Part shown: piece after piece, positions 2,886-64,000 of the stretch
Position numbering within the stretch: the stretch's first letter is position 1
Layout of the letters: every line of letters begins with the position of its first letter
Assembly (NCBI GenBank): GCA_965197855.1
Contig: OZ240230.1
Span: forward strand, 960,153-1,024,152
Length of the DNA: 64,000 nucleotides
Origin: Bdellovibrionales bacterium
GTDB lineage: Bacteria > Bdellovibrionota > Bdellovibrionia > Bdellovibrionales > UBA1609
Direction: 5' to 3'
Position numbers and translations under genes: made by a program
The notes under the pieces: generated by a model
Database searches by the model: none
What the model saw: the letters and a program-made list of their open reading frames with translations, nothing else
Told to the model about the DNA's origin: nothing

Positions 2886-3701
2886 CTAAACAGGAATATC
2901 TCTAAGGACAGAATTTAAAGAAGTTTTTAAATCTGTAGAGCTGGATCTTTTTCCAATAATAAGAGCGCAGGGGATTGAATATTCACCAGCAGAAAATTGT
3001 TTTTTTCTGGTTCCGGGAATGACCACAGCATTTTCAGGAACGATACCTGTAAAAATTTTTTCTTCTTTAGAAGTGACATCAATAATTTTAGAGCTTTTTG
3101 TGATGACAACACCAGCTCCTAGTACAGCACCTTTTCGGACTTGTACTCCTTCTACAATAATGCATCTGCTTCCAATAAAGACATTGTCTTCGATAATAAC
3201 AGGCTGAGCTTGCACAGGCTCTAAGACTCCGCCTAAACCAACACCGCCTGAAACATGAACATTTTTTCCCACTTGAGCGCAGGAGCCCACTGTGGCCCAA
3301 GTGTCAATGAGACTTCCTGAGTCCACATAAGCACCAATATTGATATAAGAAGGCATCAGCACTGTATTGGGGGCAACGAAAGAGCCTTGTCTCACCAGAG
3401 CTTGAGGAACGACTCTGACCCCTTCATTTCCGGTCCACTGTTTTAATGGGATTTTGTCAAAATAAGAAAAGTCATCTCCTAAAGAGATTACTTTGGATTT
3501 TTTTAATTGAAAGTACAGCAGAATAGATTTTTTCACCCATTCATTCACTTGCCATGTATCAGATATTTTTTCACAAACCCGAATTGCTCCTCGATCCAAA
3601 AGGCTTATGGTTGTTTCAATTTCAGAACTTGCTTTTTCAATTTGTTTGGAAACAAAAATTTCTTCAATGACTTGTTTTAAGTTTGAAAATTCATTTGGCA
3701 T
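2886..3701 (-). CDS. dapD: 2,3,4,5-tetrahydropyridine-2,6-dicarboxylate N-succinyltransferase
   Basis: 271 aa; hexapeptide-repeat beta-helix region (GAYVDSGSLIDTWATVGSCAQVGKNVHVSGGVGLGGVLEP) typical of DapD. Confidence 0.9.
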   Translation of the reverse strand: MPNEFSNLKQVIEEIFVSKQIEKASSEIETTISLLDRGAIRVCEKISDTWQVNEWVKKSILLYFQLKKSKVISLGDDFSYFDKIPLKQWTGNEGVRVVPQALVRQGSFVAPNTVLMPSYINIGAYVDSGSLIDTWATVGSCAQVGKNVHVSGGVGLGGVLEPVQAQPVIIEDNVFIGSRCIIVEGVQVRKGAVLGAGVVITKSSKIIDVTSKEEKIFTGIVPENAVVIPGTRKKQFSAGEYSIPCALIIGKRSSSTDLKTSLNSVLRDIPV

Positions 3702-6792: not shown

Positions 6793-6919
6793 AAAATGCT
6801 CCGTGAAAATTTATAGTGAATTTTTAAACGTTTATCAGTTCTTATACAATTAAACAATGAAACTTCTTTAGATTCTATCGGAATCCTCATATATTTTCTG
6901 TATGGCTTTTTAAATTCCA

Positions 6920-6947
6920 TTGAATTTTACAGCAAACTGTCTATACT
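6920..6947 (+). promoter_or_regulatory. sigma70-like promoter for tRNA-Leu
   Basis: TTGAAT, 16-nt spacer, TATACT; the -10 ends 11 nt before the tRNA 5' end. Confidence 0.45.
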
Positions 6948-6958
6948 TTTGAATGCTT

Positions 6959-7047
6959 GCCCGAGTGGCGGAATCGGTAGACGCACAGGACTTAAAATCC
7001 TGGGGTTTTTAAAAACCGTGCCAGTTCAAGTCTGGCCTTGGGCACCA
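6959..7047 (+). tRNA. tRNA-Leu(TAA), class II with long variable arm, CCA encoded
   Basis: Acceptor GCCCGAG/CTTGGGC, anticodon loop CTTAAAA, variable-arm hairpin GGTTTTT/AAAAACC, T-loop GTTCAAGTC, terminal ACCA. Confidence 0.9.
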
Positions 7048-8231
7048 TCCTTCTTTAGAGTTTGTCTGTATAACATAGGGTTAATAATGAGACTGGCAAG
7101 ACTGGTACAAATTAAAATAGAAAATATTCTGGAATCCACATATCCTTTGGAAAAAGCTATTTCTGCAACAATTAAATCCAAAGTGCCTCTAGAGTTCAAA
7201 GCAATTCCTACTTGGCTGGATTCTCTATTAGTAAAGCCGGACCACTTGGCTCCCATCCCAGAGCCAAAAATTTTAGAAGTGTAAGCGACCCCCATAATAG
7301 AAAGTAAAAGAGCAGGCTGATCAAAAGCTTCCACTGAAAAATAGAGCCCAATGGAAGCAAAAAATATGGGAGTTAAGAATTGATCTGTAATAGAATTTAA
7401 AGTTTTTGTCATGGATTCAAAGGCGCCCATGCCAATAATGTCTTTGTTTAAGAGAAGTCCTCCAAAGAAAGCTCCGATAATGAAGTGAAACCCTAAAGCT
7501 TCTGTAGCTGTGCTAAAAAGTAAAACAAAAACTACCCCTGCACCGAAAATAGCTTCTTCTCCTACATAACTAATGAGTTTTGAAATAAAATTTTTCGATT
7601 GAGGAGTGCTAAGCAATTCAGATCTTAAAAATTTATTTACTAGCATCACAACTATAAAGAACAACACCATGCCTGCCATTTTTGAACTAATAATTTTAAA
7701 AAACACTAGAGGACTTTGTATATGTTCAACATTTAGGATAACCCCTAAAAATAGAAGAACCATTACATCTAAAATAACAGAAGCCCCCATAATGGTATGT
7801 CCCATTTTAGTATCTATAAAATTATAATTACTCATAAATCGAATCACTATAGGGAGGGCTGTAATGGAAAAACATAAGCCCAATATAATGGAAGCAAAAA
7901 ATGGCAAATCCCAAAAGTAGCCAATACCCAATCCGGATAAAAAAGAGAAAATGAAACCTGTTAGAGAACAAAACAATGCTTTTTTACGAATAGCTCCAAA
8001 AATATCTTGTAGATTCATTTCCAAGCCTGCCGCAAAAATCATTAAAAAAATTCCCAACTCTATAATGCCGTTAAGTTCTTTTGAAGGAGTGACTGCATTA
8101 AATACAGTAGGACTCAGAAGTAGACCGGCTAGTATTTCTCCAATGACTGTAGAAAATCCAATAGATTTAAACAAACGCCCTAAGAGCCGTGCACAAGCCA
8201 AAAGCAGGAGAAGATGGGTAATAATATTCAT
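7026..8231 (-). CDS. cation:proton antiporter (Na+/H+ exchanger / Kef-type membrane domain)
   Basis: 401 aa, about 12 hydrophobic helices; N-terminus ...ARLLGRLFKSIGFSTVIGEILAGLLLSP typical of the CPA2 family. Confidence 0.8.
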   Translation of the reverse strand: MNIITHLLLLLACARLLGRLFKSIGFSTVIGEILAGLLLSPTVFNAVTPSKELNGIIELGIFLMIFAAGLEMNLQDIFGAIRKKALFCSLTGFIFSFLSGLGIGYFWDLPFFASIILGLCFSITALPIVIRFMSNYNFIDTKMGHTIMGASVILDVMVLLFLGVILNVEHIQSPLVFFKIISSKMAGMVLFFIVVMLVNKFLRSELLSTPQSKNFISKLISYVGEEAIFGAGVVFVLLFSTATEALGFHFIIGAFFGGLLLNKDIIGMGAFESMTKTLNSITDQFLTPIFFASIGLYFSVEAFDQPALLLSIMGVAYTSKIFGSGMGAKWSGFTNRESSQVGIALNSRGTLDLIVAEIAFSKGYVDSRIFSILICTSLASLIINPMLYRQTLKKDGAQGQT

Positions 8232-22525: not shown

Positions 22526-22869
22526 GGGGGCGTTAGGCTTCGACGCAAATAATAAGCATTAGGGAGCATGCAGAGGTGCATGGGGACCTCTTTAAAAACG
22601 TGCATAAAACTAATTGGCAACTTTGCCACTTTAGCTGCTTAATTTTAAAGTAGCCGTGGAACCAACTTAGACGGCGAAGTTGGGGAAGCGTCGATTCAGT
22701 CGTCTCGGTTGACTGTTTTTCTCAGGCAGTGGGCTTAAATCAATGAGAAAAAACTTGAGGAAATTTTGCCTTTGGAAGTTCCTTTAAGTTTTTAAAACAG
22801 AGGCTGAGCATGGAGCACCCAAATGTAGAAGCTTTGCGGACACGAGTTCAATTCTCGTCGCCTCCACCA
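22526..22869 (+). ncRNA. ssrA: tmRNA (transfer-messenger RNA)
   Basis: 5' GGGGGCG pairs with 3' CGCCTCC-ACCA including a G3-U pair; GGCTTCGACG; T-arm ACGAGTTCAATTCTCGT; tag frame ends GGC AAC TTT GCC ACT TTA GCT GCT TAA (..GNFATLAA stop). Confidence 0.93.
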
Positions 22870-22907: not shown

Positions 22908-23050
22908 TTGTCGGGGCGAGAATTGAAGTGAGCGAGCGCTTTGTGTTGAGTGTGAAAACACTCAATACAAAGCAGAAAATCTGGAGATTTTCTGAGCGAG
23001 TGAAGGGAGCCTACGCAAAGAAAGAACGGGATGTGAGTGACTGTAGTAGG

Positions 23051-23071
23051 CAATTCTCGTCGCCTCCACCA
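23051..23071 (+). repeat. duplicate of the last 21 nt of ssrA
   Basis: CAATTCTCGTCGCCTCCACCA identical to 22849-22869. Confidence 0.95.
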
Positions 23072-62381: not shown

Positions 62382-63065
62382 ATGAAAGAAGGTTTTTTGA
62401 AAAAGAAAAGAGATGATATCTTTTTACTTATTTTAATCCTCTTTACTTTTTCTGTATCTTGCACGCAAAAAAGTTTTGTGTGCTGGAATGAAGAAAAAAC
62501 AGAAGCCATAGCTTTTTCCTTTGATGATATTTTAAATATTGTTACAGTTCGGGATATTCATAGTTATTCTACTTTAAATGCAAAAAAAGAACCTTTAGAT
62601 TCTGATATGCCTGGGGGAACTCATGTTCTTCAGATGGATGAGGATTTTATTACTTTGGAGGTGATACAAGATACGGTTTTGGTTAAAACTCGCTTGCCAT
62701 CAGGAGAGTTTATAAAAAATCCTGCGGATATTGATAATGAATATGATTATTTAAATCAAAGACGTTATCATGCTGTTTATCCTGTGGTGCATAAGTATGT
62801 CTTTGATAAAGGGTTGTCGAAACTTTCTCTCTTTTATTCGGCTCTCCCCAAACCACGTTCAGCCATAGAGCAGGAATTTATTTCTGATAAAACAAGAGGG
62901 GATCTTTATCCAAGAAAAGTAAAGGATCTGACAGCTGAGGAATTTTCTTCTATTTTTCCACCTCATGAAAAATCCAGTACTTTTCTTTATCCTAAGTGTA
63001 GAGAAGAGACTTATTCGCTGAAAAGAATTTTACGCACTATTATCAGACATCTCACTTTTGCGTAG
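62382..63065 (+). CDS. hypothetical lipoprotein
   Basis: 227 aa; lipobox FSVSC; last codons overlap a fragment of the tRNA-linked module core. Confidence 0.5.
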   Translation: MKEGFLKKKRDDIFLLILILFTFSVSCTQKSFVCWNEEKTEAIAFSFDDILNIVTVRDIHSYSTLNAKKEPLDSDMPGGTHVLQMDEDFITLEVIQDTVLVKTRLPSGEFIKNPADIDNEYDYLNQRRYHAVYPVVHKYVFDKGLSKLSLFYSALPKPRSAIEQEFISDKTRGDLYPRKVKDLTAEEFSSIFPPHEKSSTFLYPKCREETYSLKRILRTIIRHLTFA

Positions 63066-63147
63066 GCTCCCTTTCCTTGTTCTCTATGTAGAGCATTTCA
63101 TCATACTAAGATATTTATTTTGCTTCTTTTTTAAAAGAAGAGAAAAG

Positions 63148-63165
63148 TGACCACGAGTGGACTCG
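63148..63165 (-). repeat. duplicate of the last 18 nt of tRNA-Arg
   Basis: TGACCACGAGTGGACTCG identical to 63345-63362. Confidence 0.95.
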
Positions 63166-63311
63166 CCTACTACAGTCATTCGCATCCAGCTCACTCCTTG
63201 CGTAGGCTCTCTTCAGACACTCAGAAAATCGTCAAGATTTTCTGCCTTGTATTGAATACTTTCATATTTAACACAAGTCGTGTCTTCACTTCGAGTCCAC
63301 TGATGATAAAA

Positions 63312-63338
63312 AAGAAGAGGACTTACAGCCCCCTTCTT
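63312..63338 (-). terminator. rho-independent terminator after tRNA-Arg
   Basis: In tRNA sense AAGAAGGGG-GCTGTAAGT-CCTCTTCTT followed by TTTTTAT; one mismatch in a 9-bp stem. Confidence 0.6.
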
Positions 63339-63344
63339 TTTTAT

Positions 63345-63418
63345 TGACCACGAGTGGACTCGAACCACTGACCTGCAGTTTAGGAAACTGTTGCTCTATC
63401 CAGCTGAGCTACGTGGCC
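63345..63418 (-). tRNA. tRNA-Arg(CCT), CCA not encoded
   Basis: Reverse complement GGCCACGTAGCTCAGCTGGATAGAGCAACAGTTTCCTAAACTGCAGGTCAGTGGTTCGAGTCCACTCGTGGTCA folds as a cloverleaf with anticodon loop TTCCTAA. Confidence 0.92.
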
Positions 63419-64000
63419 GGCCTTTTTAATTGCAATTGAATTTTTTGTGCCAGCTCTGCAAAGCATTTTCCCTCTTCCAAATCCTGTTCCATCAAAGGAA
63501 TCCCAGATTCTGCAAAAAGACCGATATCCGGATGAAAAGGAACCTGAACTAACTTTTCTATTTCATGCTCCTTCAAATAAGAATCCAATTGTCCCTTTGG
63601 AAAGAGCTGAATCATATCATTTGCCTGTTTCAAATAAGCCATATTTTCCACAACACCCAAAAGTGGAATTTGTATTTCCTTAAACATAGCTACAGCTCTA
63701 ATGGCATCGGCCAAAGCCAGATTTTGAGGTGTACAAACTACAATGCCACCGGAGACAGGAGTTTTTTGAGCCAATGTCAGAGCTATATCTCCCGTGCCAG
63801 GTGGAAGATCCACTAACAAATAATCCAAATCTCCCCAATCCACTTCATTTAAAAACTGTTCAATGGCTTTAAACAACATAGGGCCTCTCCAAATGACGGC
63901 CGCATGTTCGTCTACTAAATAACCAATAGAAGTTAGTTTCAATCCGTGTTTCATAATGGGTACTAAACGTTCTTGATGAACTCTCATCTTTTCTTTCTTT
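63409..64000 (-). CDS. apbC: Mrp/ApbC-family Fe-S cluster carrier ATPase, C-terminal part (5' end outside window)
   Basis: AVIWRGPML, DYLLVDLPPGTGD and VENM motifs; frame stays open to the window edge; stop lies 10 nt inside tRNA-Arg. Confidence 0.85.
   Translation of the reverse strand, partial: KKEKMRVHQERLVPIMKHGLKLTSIGYLVDEHAAVIWRGPMLFKAIEQFLNEVDWGDLDYLLVDLPPGTGDIALTLAQKTPVSGGIVVCTPQNLALADAIRAVAMFKEIQIPLLGVVENMAYLKQANDMIQLFPKGQLDSYLKEHEIEKLVQVPFHPDIGLFAESGIPLMEQDLEEGKCFAELAQKIQLQLKRPAT

What the first reader, a model, noticed from the sequence alone, without database searches (positions are those of the whole stretch)
63123..63362. tRNA-Arg(CCT) 3' end duplicated 197 bp downstream with the same kind of insert
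TGACCACGAGTGGACTCG (63345-63362, the acceptor and T-stem 3' strand of the minus-strand tRNA-Arg) recurs perfectly at 63148-63165. Between the copies lie a proper terminator (63312-63338), an inverted copy of the T-arm (63290-63301) and the conserved core. Beyond the displaced copy sits a CTTCTTTT/AAAAGAAG hairpin (63123-63140). This is an independent second occurrence of the ssrA arrangement at a different tRNA gene with a different repeat sequence. That argues against chance decay of two unrelated islands.
Basis: partly seen in the sequence, partly recalled or inferred. Interest (0 to 1): 0.6.

Follow-up and report, generated by a model that had tools for sequence, protein, structure and literature searches.

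The report
Structured mini-element tailing tRNA-Arg gene
Behind a tRNA-Arg gene sits a 179-base, gene-less, folded element bracketed by two copies of the tRNA's last 18 bases; it belongs to a widespread family that resembles the long-unexplained "tRNA-linked repeats" of E. coli and is not the wreck of a genomic island.

Summary
The 18-mer (tRNA-Arg(CCT) positions 56-73) occurs twice, 197 bp apart. Between the copies lie an intrinsic terminator, a 12-nt antisense copy of the T-loop and T-stem, and a ~125-nt core. That core is colinear with the insert behind ssrA.

The core is a conserved structure. It covaries, and the tRNA-sense strand folds better in 32 of 33 copies. It matches no Rfam family.

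The same element follows 16 kinds of tRNA/tmRNA gene in Bdellovibrionota, Omnitrophota, Planctomycetia, Desulfuromonadales and WWE3 MAGs. Each copy ends in its own tRNA's tail.

At this locus, three relatives carry the insert. One relative has the exact empty site and no island.

The window's copy is a mosaic. Its spacer and arm are orthologous to the relatives' copies (96-97%). Its core resembles a tRNA-Ala-linked copy (86-94%), which points to gene conversion among paralogues.

The closest thing in print is the E. coli tRNA-linked repeats (TLRs). They share the arm, core, tail and tandem-array architecture, but homology was not shown.

How the element moves is inferred only. I favour target-primed copying that duplicates the target's T-loop-to-3'-end segment. 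The simple integrase-remnant reading is rejected.

The parts
63345..63418 (-). tRNA-Arg(CCT) gene, intact
   Evidence: ARAGORN; Rfam tRNA 63.7 bits
63345..63362 (-). Proximal copy of the 18-nt repeat. It is tRNA positions 56-73: the T-loop 3' part, the T-stem 3' strand, the acceptor 3' strand and the discriminator
63306..63344 (-). Spacer carrying an intrinsic terminator (stem 63315-63334, then a T-run). It is 96-97% identical to the spacer of relatives at the same locus
63290..63301 (-). Arm: AGTGGACTCGAA, the reverse complement of tRNA positions 54-65. It pairs with the tail to close helix P1
63166..63289 (-). Structured core. It holds a P2/P3 domain, the P4 hairpin (63222-63244) and the P5/P6 domain GAGCCTACGCAA...TGTAGTAGG (63166-63209). 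The sequence is of the 'A type', 86-94% identical to a tRNA-Ala-linked copy in another MAG
63148..63165 (-). Tail: the distal copy of the 18-nt repeat, directly abutting the invariant GTAGTAGG
63123..63140 (.). AT-rich hairpin CTTCTTTT-TT-AAAAGAAG. It is the pre-existing trailer, not part of the insert, because it follows the tRNA directly in empty-site relative L044
63047..63069 (-). Remnant of an older, decayed copy of the core (GAGCCTACGCAA box). It overlaps the stop codon of lipoprotein gene 62382-63065. The same old copy is better preserved in L044 (3149-3241)
22914..23071 (+). Sister copy behind ssrA: arm, core and a 21-nt tail equal to tmRNA position 56 through CCA

Best explanation
SHOWN. 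This is one copy of a gene-less element of about 180-200 bp. It sits exactly at the 3' end of a tRNA gene, between two copies of the tRNA segment that runs from T-loop position 56 to the 3' end. In tRNA orientation the unit reads: spacer with a terminator; a 10-12-nt arm antisense to the T-loop and T-stem; a ~125-nt core with covarying helices on the tRNA-sense strand and an invariant 3' box; and a tail that copies the host tRNA. The family occupies at least 16 kinds of tRNA/tmRNA gene in several phyla. It forms tandem arrays and can be lost precisely. Cores of different copies are homogenised by gene conversion; the window's tRNA-Arg copy is such a mosaic. It is not an attL-attR remnant of an integrase island.

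INFERRED. (1) The element is made as RNA by read-through of the tRNA's terminator. No promoter of its own is visible. The tail, paired with the arm, gives the RNA a stable-RNA-like 3' end that is trimmed like the tRNA's, as shown for the E. coli TLR sRNAs RrA, RrB and RrF.
(2) New copies arise by target-primed copying. A break or stalled 3' end in the T-loop of a tRNA gene anneals to the tail of an existing element, either its transcript or its DNA. The 3' end is extended through core, arm and spacer. It then rejoins the target near the tRNA's 3' end. The target's own 56-to-3'-end segment is thereby duplicated, with a fixed left end and a variable right end. The tail is therefore always the target's own sequence. 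The arm is carried along and must match or adapt later.

I give about 0.85 to the class assignment and about 0.35 to this insertion mechanism. Within the mechanism, RNA-templated copying (SINE-like) is slightly ahead of DNA template switching.
For: Repeat and anatomy.

Family distribution: 31 genome loci and 10 metagenome loci from one 21-base pattern. About 34 are real, and nearly all of those lie 90-250 nt downstream of, and co-oriented with, a tRNA or tmRNA gene. Where the adjacent tRNA is known, the tail matches it. The covariance model gave 58 hits, including tandem arrays of 2-4 units.

Structure: folding z-scores of -5.5 and -3.1. 85.4% of cells are paired against 69% in shuffles. There are 140 compensatory cells against 48, reached by 0 of 500 shuffles. 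Slid controls gave 34-48% paired. The sense strand is more stable than the antisense in 32 of 33 copies, by a mean of 11 kcal/mol, with 117 G-U pairs.

Not a known RNA: Rfam gathering and E-value searches returned only the tRNA and tmRNA.

Empty site: in L044 the tRNA-Arg is followed directly by the trailer. The window, L043, L045 and L001 have the insert plus the 18-bp duplication. No integrase was seen in the syntenic loci.

The duplication comes from the target. Its left end is always at position 56 (54 or 55 in some lineages). Its right end varies: position 73 here, 74 in L010, L011, L018 and L028, 76 in several others. It runs about 10-13 nt into locus-specific trailer in L030, L002 and L008, and about 57 nt in L021. 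In L011 and L018 the distal copy keeps CCA while the gene copy stops at C74. This is what a duplication ending at position 74 predicts.

Mosaic: spacer plus arm is 96-97% identical to the orthologous copies. The core is 65-84% identical to them but 86-94% identical to L010's tRNA-Ala copy.

No sigma-70-like promoter lies between terminator and arm.

Precedent: E. coli TLRs are read-through products that lie between two terminators and are processed at the repeated 3' end (PMC8144298). I found the same arm-core-tail layout at tyrT and argV.
Against: No RNA-seq of this organism or of a close relative was available, so transcription and processing are untested.

No reverse transcriptase, nuclease or recombinase could be linked to the family. 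No protein family is shared by the neighbourhoods of the elements in more than 2 genomes.

A strong terminator stands between the tRNA and the element.

By flank phylogeny, the empty site in L044 is best read as a precise loss, not an ancestral state. It therefore defines the unit boundaries but does not show an insertion event.

Gene conversion among paralogues can mimic recent transposition. The pair L002 unit 2 and L030 (96% identical) is an example.

The arms match their own tRNA over 8-10 nt in most copies. A mechanism that merely carries the arm along does not explain that. Arms also do not follow private mutations of the tail: L001, L018 and L021 unit 2 show this, and in L003 the arm matches the tRNA while the tail has decayed.
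Confidence: 0.5

Rival explanations
1. It is a deletion derivative of a tRNA-integrating island (a CIME-like attL-attR remnant of a P4-type tyrosine integrase element). The two 18-mers would be att cores, and the 179 bp would be what is left of the P and P' arms.
For: Direct repeats running from the T-loop to the 3' end of a tRNA or tmRNA gene are the classic signature of T-loop-class integrases. Tandem units resemble accretion. A relative, L046, has an integrase plus an HTH_17 gene next to the lipoprotein gene.
Against: The same ~125-nt core with the same boundaries follows 16 different tRNA/tmRNA species, each with its own tail. One integrase specificity cannot do that. No integrase occurs in any of the ~34 element neighbourhoods or in the syntenic loci. 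L046 has neither the tRNA-Arg nor the repeat. The duplicated segment includes locus-specific trailer bases, and its right end varies. attP x attB exchange would instead give an element-derived proximal copy. The core is a covarying, strand-specific fold, not a set of arm-type protein sites.
Confidence: 0.05
2. It spreads at the DNA level only, with no dedicated machinery. The elements would propagate by replication template switching or microhomology-mediated repair between tRNA genes. The microhomologies would be the universally conserved T-loop (GGTTCRANTCC) and the CCA end. Local tandem duplication and gene conversion would do the rest. The fold would be kept because the RNA is useful to the host.
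For: This predicts the same sequence outcome as target-primed reverse transcription: a tail from the target, spacer, arm and core from the source, and junctions at the T-loop and near the 3' end. Gene conversion among copies is demonstrated. Precise loss between 18-bp repeats is seen in L044. Fractional tandem arrays occur, as with the 3.14 repeats at E. coli tyrT. E. coli K-12 carries 22 TLRs.
Against: Microhomology events are rare, yet single small genomes hold 9 or more copies at different tRNAs (OY843585.1). The invariant box directly abutting the tail looks like a recognition site for a protein acting at that junction. It also does not explain why arms are tailored to each tRNA.
Confidence: 0.2
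3. It is primarily a host sRNA module and not a selfish element. It would be a 3'-external-transcribed-spacer RNA released from tRNA read-through transcripts, acting for example as a CsrA/Rsm-type protein sponge. The arm and tail would exist to give it a tRNA-like, nuclease-resistant 3' end.
For: GGA sits in the loop of hairpin P6 in 25 of 33 copies and of P4 in 24 of 33. Typical loops are CAGGAUG, CUGGAUG and CAGGAG, the CsrB-type repeat. The E. coli TLRs RrA, RrB and RrF bind CsrA and Hfq and lie between two terminators. The rrnB TLR has a CAGGAC loop. Spacer plus arm is conserved above the flanking-gene level (96-97% against 80-88%).
Against: The window's own P4 loop reads UUGACG, with no GGA. 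Function does not explain spread to 16 tRNA types, tandem arrays or presence/absence between relatives. None is in the window (uninformative).
Confidence: 0.15
4. It is a guide-programmed element. The arm (identical to the bottom strand of the tDNA) and the tail (identical to the top strand) would act as guides that direct a trans-acting recombinase or nuclease to the T-arm of the matching tRNA gene. This would be analogous to IS110 bridge RNAs, IS200/IS605 guide sequences or group II intron EBS/IBS pairing.
For: Arms match the resident tRNA rather than private mutations of the tail. Both strands of the same 10-nt target segment are represented. A Y1_Tnp (IS200-like) gene lies about 5 kb from the element in two unrelated loci, L011 and L032.
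Against: Arm and tail are complementary to each other, so they would be sequestered in P1. Conservative cut-and-paste or HUH strand transfer would yield a chimeric proximal copy and no duplication of trailer bases. Y1 transposases make no target duplication. No recombinase is linked in the Bdellovibrionota loci. An earlier agent's version of this idea is recorded as having fallen on later checking.
Confidence: 0.08

Closest known systems
tRNA-linked repeats (TLRs) of Escherichia coli (Egan & Landy 1978; Rudd 1999; Stenum et al. 2021, PMC8144298), including rtT/rttR behind tyrT-tyrV and the sRNAs RrA, RrB and RrF behind rrnA, rrnB and rrnD
   Same: Both lie directly downstream of, and co-oriented with, a stable-RNA gene. 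Both end in 18-19 bp identical to that gene's 3' end. Both occur as 1-5 tandem units of about 180-200 bp. In the rrn cases both sit between a first terminator and a second hairpin or terminator. I also found that the tyrT and argV TLRs begin with an arm complementary to their tail: GGGGAAGGAT for tRNA-Tyr positions 59-68 and GGGAGGAT for tRNA-Arg positions 59-66. So the arm-core-tail layout is shared. A short motif is shared as well: CGAAGGG(C)GAGCC.
   Different: No homology is detectable. Covariance model R1 gives no genuine hit on the tyrT locus; its 18-bit hit is an artefact that spans the end of a TLR unit and the neighbouring tyrV tRNA. The E. coli tail starts at position 58, not 56. E. 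coli TLRs lack the invariant GAGCCUACGCAA...UGUAGUAGG domain. The origin and mobility of TLRs are not explained in the literature I could read.
T-loop-class integration of tyrosine-integrase islands, prophages and their gene-less derivatives (CIMEs) at tRNA/tmRNA genes
   Same: Both show a direct repeat from the T-loop to the 3' end of a tRNA or tmRNA gene. In both, the functional gene is followed by a terminator supplied with the insert, and tandem accretion occurs.
   Different: There is no integrase. One core family sits at 16 different tRNA species. The duplicated segment comes from the target and has a variable right end. The insert is a covarying single-strand fold.
Non-autonomous target-primed retroelements (SINE/LINE partnership; tRNA-gene-targeting retrotransposons of eukaryotes)
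   Same: Both are short, non-coding and would be transcript-defined units. Both have a conserved structured 3' domain next to the priming site. Both show a target-site duplication of variable length with an exact 3' junction, and decayed or truncated copies.
   Different: No reverse transcriptase partner is known. No RNA intermediate has been shown. No bacterial precedent exists. The target duplication starts inside the tRNA gene, which stays intact.

Membership tests
E. coli-type tRNA-linked repeats (TLR) | Lies immediately downstream of a tRNA or rRNA gene, on the same strand | tested here: met
   The element at 63148-63344 lies behind tRNA-Arg at 63345-63418, both on the minus strand. The same holds in about 34 related loci.
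E. coli-type tRNA-linked repeats (TLR) | The 3' end of the element is 18-19 bp identical to the 3' end of the upstream gene | tested here: met
   An 18-bp exact copy of tRNA positions 56-73. The ssrA copy has 21 bp.
E. coli-type tRNA-linked repeats (TLR) | One to five tandem units per locus | tested here: met
   There is a single full unit plus an older decayed one in the window. Relatives have 2-4 units: L002, L004, L008, L010, L015, L021, L038.
E. coli-type tRNA-linked repeats (TLR) | [quoted passage not shown] | not testable with these tools
   No RNA run holds this organism. Indirect support only: a terminator at 63315-63334 and no promoter-like site before the arm.
E. coli-type tRNA-linked repeats (TLR) | Sequence or profile homology to the E. 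coli TLR core | tested here: not met
   Covariance model R1 gave no genuine hit on tyrT-tyrV locus L042. Only a 12-nt motif resemblance was seen.
Tyrosine-integrase island / CIME remnant | An integrase gene in the element, or a full-length element with the same ends in relatives | tested here: not met
   Syntenic loci L043, L044, L045 and L001 have the mini-element or an empty site and no integrase. No recombinase family recurs near the elements.
Tyrosine-integrase island / CIME remnant | One element family targets one att site (one tRNA species) | tested here: not met
   Sixteen tRNA/tmRNA species are occupied by the same core.
Tyrosine-integrase island / CIME remnant | Conservative exchange: the proximal repeat is element-derived, and identity stops where the element's copy stops | tested here: not met
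   Repeats include locus-specific trailer bases, and their right ends vary (positions 73, 74, 76, +10, +13, +57).
Target-primed (SINE-like) retroelement | Variable-length target-site duplication with an exact 3' junction | tested here: met
   The left end is fixed at position 56 (54 or 55 in some lineages), abutting GTAGTAGG. The right end is variable.
Target-primed (SINE-like) retroelement | An RNA intermediate and a reverse transcriptase partner | not testable with these tools
   No RNA data were available. No reverse transcriptase was seen in the neighbourhoods.
Any Rfam 15 family | Covariance-model match at or near the gathering score | tested here: not met
   Only tRNA and tmRNA reached threshold in the window. 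An E-value search of 63000-63450 gave nothing credible on the core.
IS200/IS605 or REPIN-RAYT hairpin elements | A Y1 HUH transposase partner and insertion without target duplication | tested here: not met
   A target duplication is present. Y1_Tnp genes lie near only 2 of about 26 genomes' loci and about 5 kb away.

The most novel reading that the evidence does not exclude
These elements, and the E. coli TLRs that have been unexplained since 1978, would be members of a pan-bacterial class of non-autonomous 'tRNA-trailer' retro-elements. Each unit would be transcribed as the 3' trailer of its host tRNA and cut out by the cell's tRNA 3'-end machinery. It would then be copied back into DNA from a nick in the T-loop of a tRNA gene, using the RNA's tail as the homing sequence. 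That would make it a bacterial counterpart of SINEs that rebuilds its own target-matched tail at every jump.
Probability: 0.2. Interest if true: 0.85.

Novelty: new variant of a known kind. Interest (0 to 1): 0.62.

Why it matters
If the family is what it appears to be, a structured non-coding element has colonised the ends of tRNA, tmRNA and perhaps rRNA genes across very distant bacteria with no gene of its own.

It gives comparative depth to a 45-year-old oddity of E. coli, the tRNA-linked repeats. Many copies, covarying helices, exact empty sites and gene conversion are now available to study. It also makes two questions testable. First, is there an RNA-mediated copy-and-paste pathway in bacteria outside group II introns, retrons and DGRs? 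Second, do tRNA 3' trailers serve widely as sRNA genes, possibly as CsrA-type sponges?

There is a practical consequence too. These inserts mimic attL/attR scars and displaced tRNA 3' ends. Island-finding software and annotators will mis-call them as remnants of integrative elements.

Tried and rejected
I therefore could not census all tRNA genes of this genome, could not search genome-wide for RT, integrase or CsrA genes, and could not build a phylogenetic profile. Within the window, only ssrA and tRNA-Arg of the four tRNA/tmRNA genes carry the element.

(2) Rfam at gathering and E-value thresholds returned only the tRNA and tmRNA.

(3) Viral contigs held no copy of the core pattern. A plasmid search with the window element found no match.

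(4) RNA-seq: no run holds this organism. Laying DNA contigs of four metagenomes showed related copies and a relative whose tRNA-Arg trailer differs, but no excision joint.

(5) Homology to E. coli TLRs by covariance model was not shown.

(6) Clostridia hits to the search pattern (L012, L013, L016, L019) turned out to be a hairpin in the oriT region upstream of MobV relaxase genes. A homologous hairpin sits 60 nt upstream of mobV on Weissella plasmid pCM-SK. I treat the resemblance to P5/P6 as probably coincidental. About 3 chance pattern hits were expected by my own estimate, and HUH or relaxase strand transfer does not fit the target duplication.

(7) L046, a more distant relative with an integrase next to the lipoprotein gene, has no tRNA-Arg repeat and is rearranged.

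(8) My first reading was that the window copy is an independent insertion, because its core is closer to a tRNA-Ala copy. I withdrew it. Spacer and arm are orthologous to the relatives' copies, so the core was converted.

(9) My inference from L002 unit 2 and L030 that the arm is inherited while the tail is re-made is weakened for the same reason.

(10) A tblastn search with E. coli CsrA on the window and loci found nothing meaningful.
Full report
OBSERVATION. ARAGORN and Rfam place tRNA-Arg(CCT) at 63345-63418 on the minus strand. The 18-mer TGACCACGAGTGGACTCG occurs exactly twice, at 63345-63362 and 63148-63165. None of 100 dinucleotide shuffles gave a match. Read in tRNA orientation, the repeat is C56 to A73: the 3' part of the T-loop, the 3' strand of the T-stem, the 3' strand of the acceptor stem and the discriminator.

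Between the copies lie three things. First, a spacer with an intrinsic terminator (stem 63315-63334 plus a T-run). Second, a 12-nt stretch, AGTGGACTCGAA (63290-63301), that is the reverse complement of tRNA positions 54-65. Third, a core of about 125 nt. Beyond the distal copy sits the AT hairpin at 63123-63140.

SAME ELEMENT BEHIND ssrA. The tmRNA gene (22526-22869) has a 21-nt repeat (position 56 through CCA) 202 bp downstream. The two inserts are colinear from the arm to the tail, and their cores are 79% identical. Both fold far better than shuffles (z = -5.5 and -3.1). The other two tRNA genes in the window, Leu-TAA and Pro-TGG, have neither a duplicated 3' end nor the element.

A WIDESPREAD FAMILY. 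A 21-base pattern from the most conserved part (GAGCCTACGCAA, 15-25 nt, TGTAGTAGG) found 31 loci among species-representative genomes and 10 among metagenome contigs. It found none among viral contigs. About 34 of the 41 are real.

- Nearly all of these lie 90-250 nt downstream of a tRNA or tmRNA gene, on the same strand; a few are cut off by a contig end or, like L031, lie away from their cognate tRNA.
- The bases after GTAGTAGG copy that tRNA from position 56 (54 or 55 in some lineages) to its 3' end.
- The hosts are Arg-CCT, Arg-TCG, Arg-TCT, Ser-GGA, Ser-TGA, Ser-GCT, Leu-TAG, Leu-CAG, Met, Val, Tyr, Ala, Asn, Cys, Gln and tmRNA.
- The MAGs are labelled Bdellovibrionales, Bdellovibrionota, Bacteriovoracaceae, Oligoflexia, Desulfuromonadales, Planctomycetia, Omnitrophota and WWE3.
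- Tandem arrays of two to four units occur.
- One 1.56-Mb Bdellovibrionales chromosome holds at least nine copies.

A CONSERVED STRAND-SPECIFIC FOLD. I aligned 24 diverse copies (A2) and tested a structure made of P1 (arm with tail), P4, P5 and P6. It gives 85.4% standard pairs against 69% in column shuffles. It has 140 cells changed on both sides against 48, a value reached by 0 of 500 shuffles. Versions slid by 1-3 columns give 34-48% paired. The tRNA-sense strand is more stable than its complement in 32 of 33 copies, by a mean of 11 kcal/mol, and its folds contain 117 G-U pairs. This points to selection on the sense strand as RNA or as single-stranded DNA.

Covariance model R1 scores the two window copies at 130 and 122 bits. 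Rfam 15 has no match, at gathering or at lax thresholds. The loops of P4 and P6 carry GGA in 24 and 25 of 33 copies (CAGGAUG, CUGGAUG, CAGGAG). That is the CsrB-type motif. The window's own P4 loop lacks it.

THIS LOCUS IN RELATIVES. The convergent lipoprotein gene (62382-63065) has many homologues. Contigs of four of them, plus L001 from the pattern scan, give the orthologous region.

- L043, L045 and L001 carry the insert and the 18-bp duplication behind tRNA-Arg(CCT). R1 scores them at 115-124 bits.
- In L044 the tRNA ends ...GGTCA and is followed at once by TTTTATTCTTCTTTAAAAAAAGAAGCAAAA. That is the hairpin which in the window lies beyond the distal repeat.

The unit is therefore exactly the 179 nt plus one 18-mer, and the hairpin is the pre-existing trailer.

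All these genomes also share an older, decayed copy further downstream. It is best kept in L044 (23.5 bits). In the window it is reduced to the box at 63047-63069, and its end has become the last codons and stop of the lipoprotein gene.

Flanking-gene identities group the window with L043 (88%) and L044 with L001 (90%). The cores of L001, L043 and L045 are 91-94% alike. The insert is therefore ancestral, and L044 has lost it precisely. No island and no integrase occupies the site. L046, a more distant relative with an integrase nearby, lacks the tRNA and the repeat.

THE WINDOW COPY IS A MOSAIC. Its spacer and arm are 96-97% identical to those of L043, L045 and L001. Its core is only 65-84% identical to theirs, yet 86-94% identical to the copy behind tRNA-Ala in another MAG, L010. 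The simplest reading is gene conversion of the core by a paralogous copy, with the locus-specific spacer, arm and tail left in place.

This matters for interpretation. Near-identical cores at different tRNAs of one genome need not mean recent jumps. A core with 'foreign' relatives can sit between old, locus-tailored ends.

WHAT THE REPEATS SAY ABOUT INSERTION. Across loci, the left end of the duplicated segment is fixed and abuts the invariant GTAGTAGG. The right end varies:

- position 73 (here);
- position 74 (L010, L011, L018, L028);
- position 76 (several loci);
- 10-13 nt into locus-specific trailer (L030, L002, L008);
- about 57 nt, through the native terminator (L021 minus strand).

In L011 and L018 the distal copy reads ...CCA followed by unique sequence, while the gene copy stops at C74 and runs into the spacer. 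A duplication ending at position 74 predicts exactly this.

The duplicated DNA is therefore the target's own. Conservative attP x attB exchange, or HUH strand transfer, would instead place an element-borne 3' end on the tRNA. Neither would duplicate trailer bases.

A fixed junction at the element's 3' end with a variable second junction is what target-primed copying produces. A 3' end in the T-loop of the bottom strand anneals to the tail of an element template. It is extended through core, arm and spacer, then rejoins near the tRNA's 3' end.

The template could be RNA, as in SINE-like target-primed reverse transcription. It could also be the DNA of another copy, reached by replication template switching that uses the universally conserved T-loop and the CCA end as microhomologies. 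The sequences cannot tell these apart. I lean slightly to RNA for three reasons. The invariant domain sits exactly at the would-be priming junction. The fold is specific to the sense strand. The closest precedent is expressed as RNA.

WHAT REMAINS UNEXPLAINED. Arms match their own tRNA over 8-10 nt in most copies, beyond what the conserved T-loop provides. They follow the tRNA, not private mutations of the tail (L001, L018, L021 unit 2; in L003 the arm matches the tRNA while the tail has decayed). Three explanations are possible: the arm helps choose the target, the arm is re-templated, or selection adapts it slowly. I could not decide among them.

No protein family recurs near the elements. 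Two Y1_Tnp genes about 5 kb away, in L011 and L032, are probably coincidence.

CLOSEST KNOWN. A note from an earlier agent pointed to the E. coli tRNA-linked repeats. I read Stenum et al. 2021 (PMC8144298). The paper reports 22 TLRs at ten loci. Each ends in 18-19 bp identical to the 3' end of the upstream tRNA or 5S gene, and each locus has one to five units. The three TLRs behind rrn operons lie between two terminators. They are transcribed by read-through, are processed near the repeat, and bind Hfq and CsrA. No function is known for the TLRs so far.

I fetched tyrT-tyrV, argV-argQ and the end of rrnB from MG1655.

- The tyrT and argV units also begin with an arm complementary to their tail: GGGGAAGGAT and GGGAGGAT.
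- They share a core with each other but carry tails for Tyr and Arg.
- The rrnB repeat runs 5 nt past the mature 5S end.
- The rrnB unit has a CAGGAC-loop hairpin.

The architecture is therefore the same. Homology is not shown: R1 gives no genuine hit on E. coli, and only a short motif, CGAAGGG(C)GAGCC, is shared. One metagenome copy, L035, combines an E. coli-like arm junction (GGAT|GAGAAGCGAGAGAGCG) with our 3' domain.

I file the window element as working like a TLR, not as a proven member of the E. coli family.

SIDE TRAIL. Four Clostridia loci matched the search pattern. There the motif is a hairpin in the oriT region upstream of a MobV relaxase gene. A homologous hairpin lies 60 nt before mobV on Weissella plasmid pCM-SK. 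Given about 3 expected chance hits (my own estimate) and the mismatch with the duplication evidence, I regard this as coincidence, but I record it.

No RNA data exist for this organism. All carriers are uncultured MAGs. The mechanism is inference from sequence outcomes.

VERDICT. The feature is a real, precisely bounded, structured mini-element of a widespread family absent from Rfam. Its nearest published relatives in kind are the E. coli TLRs. I rate it a new variant of a known but unexplained kind, of moderately high interest.

Noticed in passing
window 63030-63122 (minus strand); L044 3149-3241: An older, decayed copy of the same element lies downstream of the young one. Its P5/P6 remnant, read antisense, now supplies the last codons and the TAG stop of the conserved lipoprotein gene 62382-63065. 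A non-coding element has thus been absorbed into a gene's 3' end.
   Followed up: partly
L045 about 3300-3430 (minus strand): The second, partial unit behind tRNA-Arg in this relative is interrupted inside hairpin P3 by an insert of about 100 nt with its own inverted repeats (TCCGGA.../...TCCGGA-like). It is probably a small MITE.
   Followed up: no
L012 355-466; L016; L019; L047 (Weissella pCM-SK) 523-571: A hairpin GAGCCT..-CCAAAA-AGCA-TTTTGG-TGTA..AGGC lies 60-100 nt upstream of MobV relaxase genes, in the probable oriT region. In rumen Clostridia it matches the element's invariant P5/P6 box letter for letter and scores 25-27 bits with model R1.
   Followed up: partly
L011 about 6850-7800 (minus strand); L032 5824-6510 (plus strand): IS200-like Y1_Tnp genes (Pfam E = 1e-9 to 1e-10) lie about 5 kb from the element in two otherwise unrelated loci of the Planctomycetia/Omnitrophota-type sub-family. 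No synteny links the two loci.
   Followed up: partly
L002, L006, L014, L021, L030, L031 (OY843585.1): A second interspersed repeat family (..CTCTAGTNCTTCCTTTTTATTTTTTGAGCTTTTCATCGTAAGAGGGACACTCTTCAA.., with ~110-nt sub-repeats) starts right after the CCA of tRNAs and of element tails in this genome. In L031 an element with a degenerate tRNA-Tyr-type tail sits among these repeats, far from tRNA-Tyr.
   Followed up: no
L046 4277-5678: A relative with a 64%-identical lipoprotein has a phage-type integrase and an HTH_17 (AlpA-like) gene where the others have tRNA-Arg and mrp. No tRNA-Arg repeat occurs within 5.7 kb, so the region is rearranged.
   Followed up: partly
L042 (E. coli tyrT-tyrV), L049 (argV-argQ): E. 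coli TLR units begin with an 8-10-nt arm complementary to their own tRNA-derived tail. The passages of Stenum et al. 2021 that I read do not mention this feature.
   Followed up: partly
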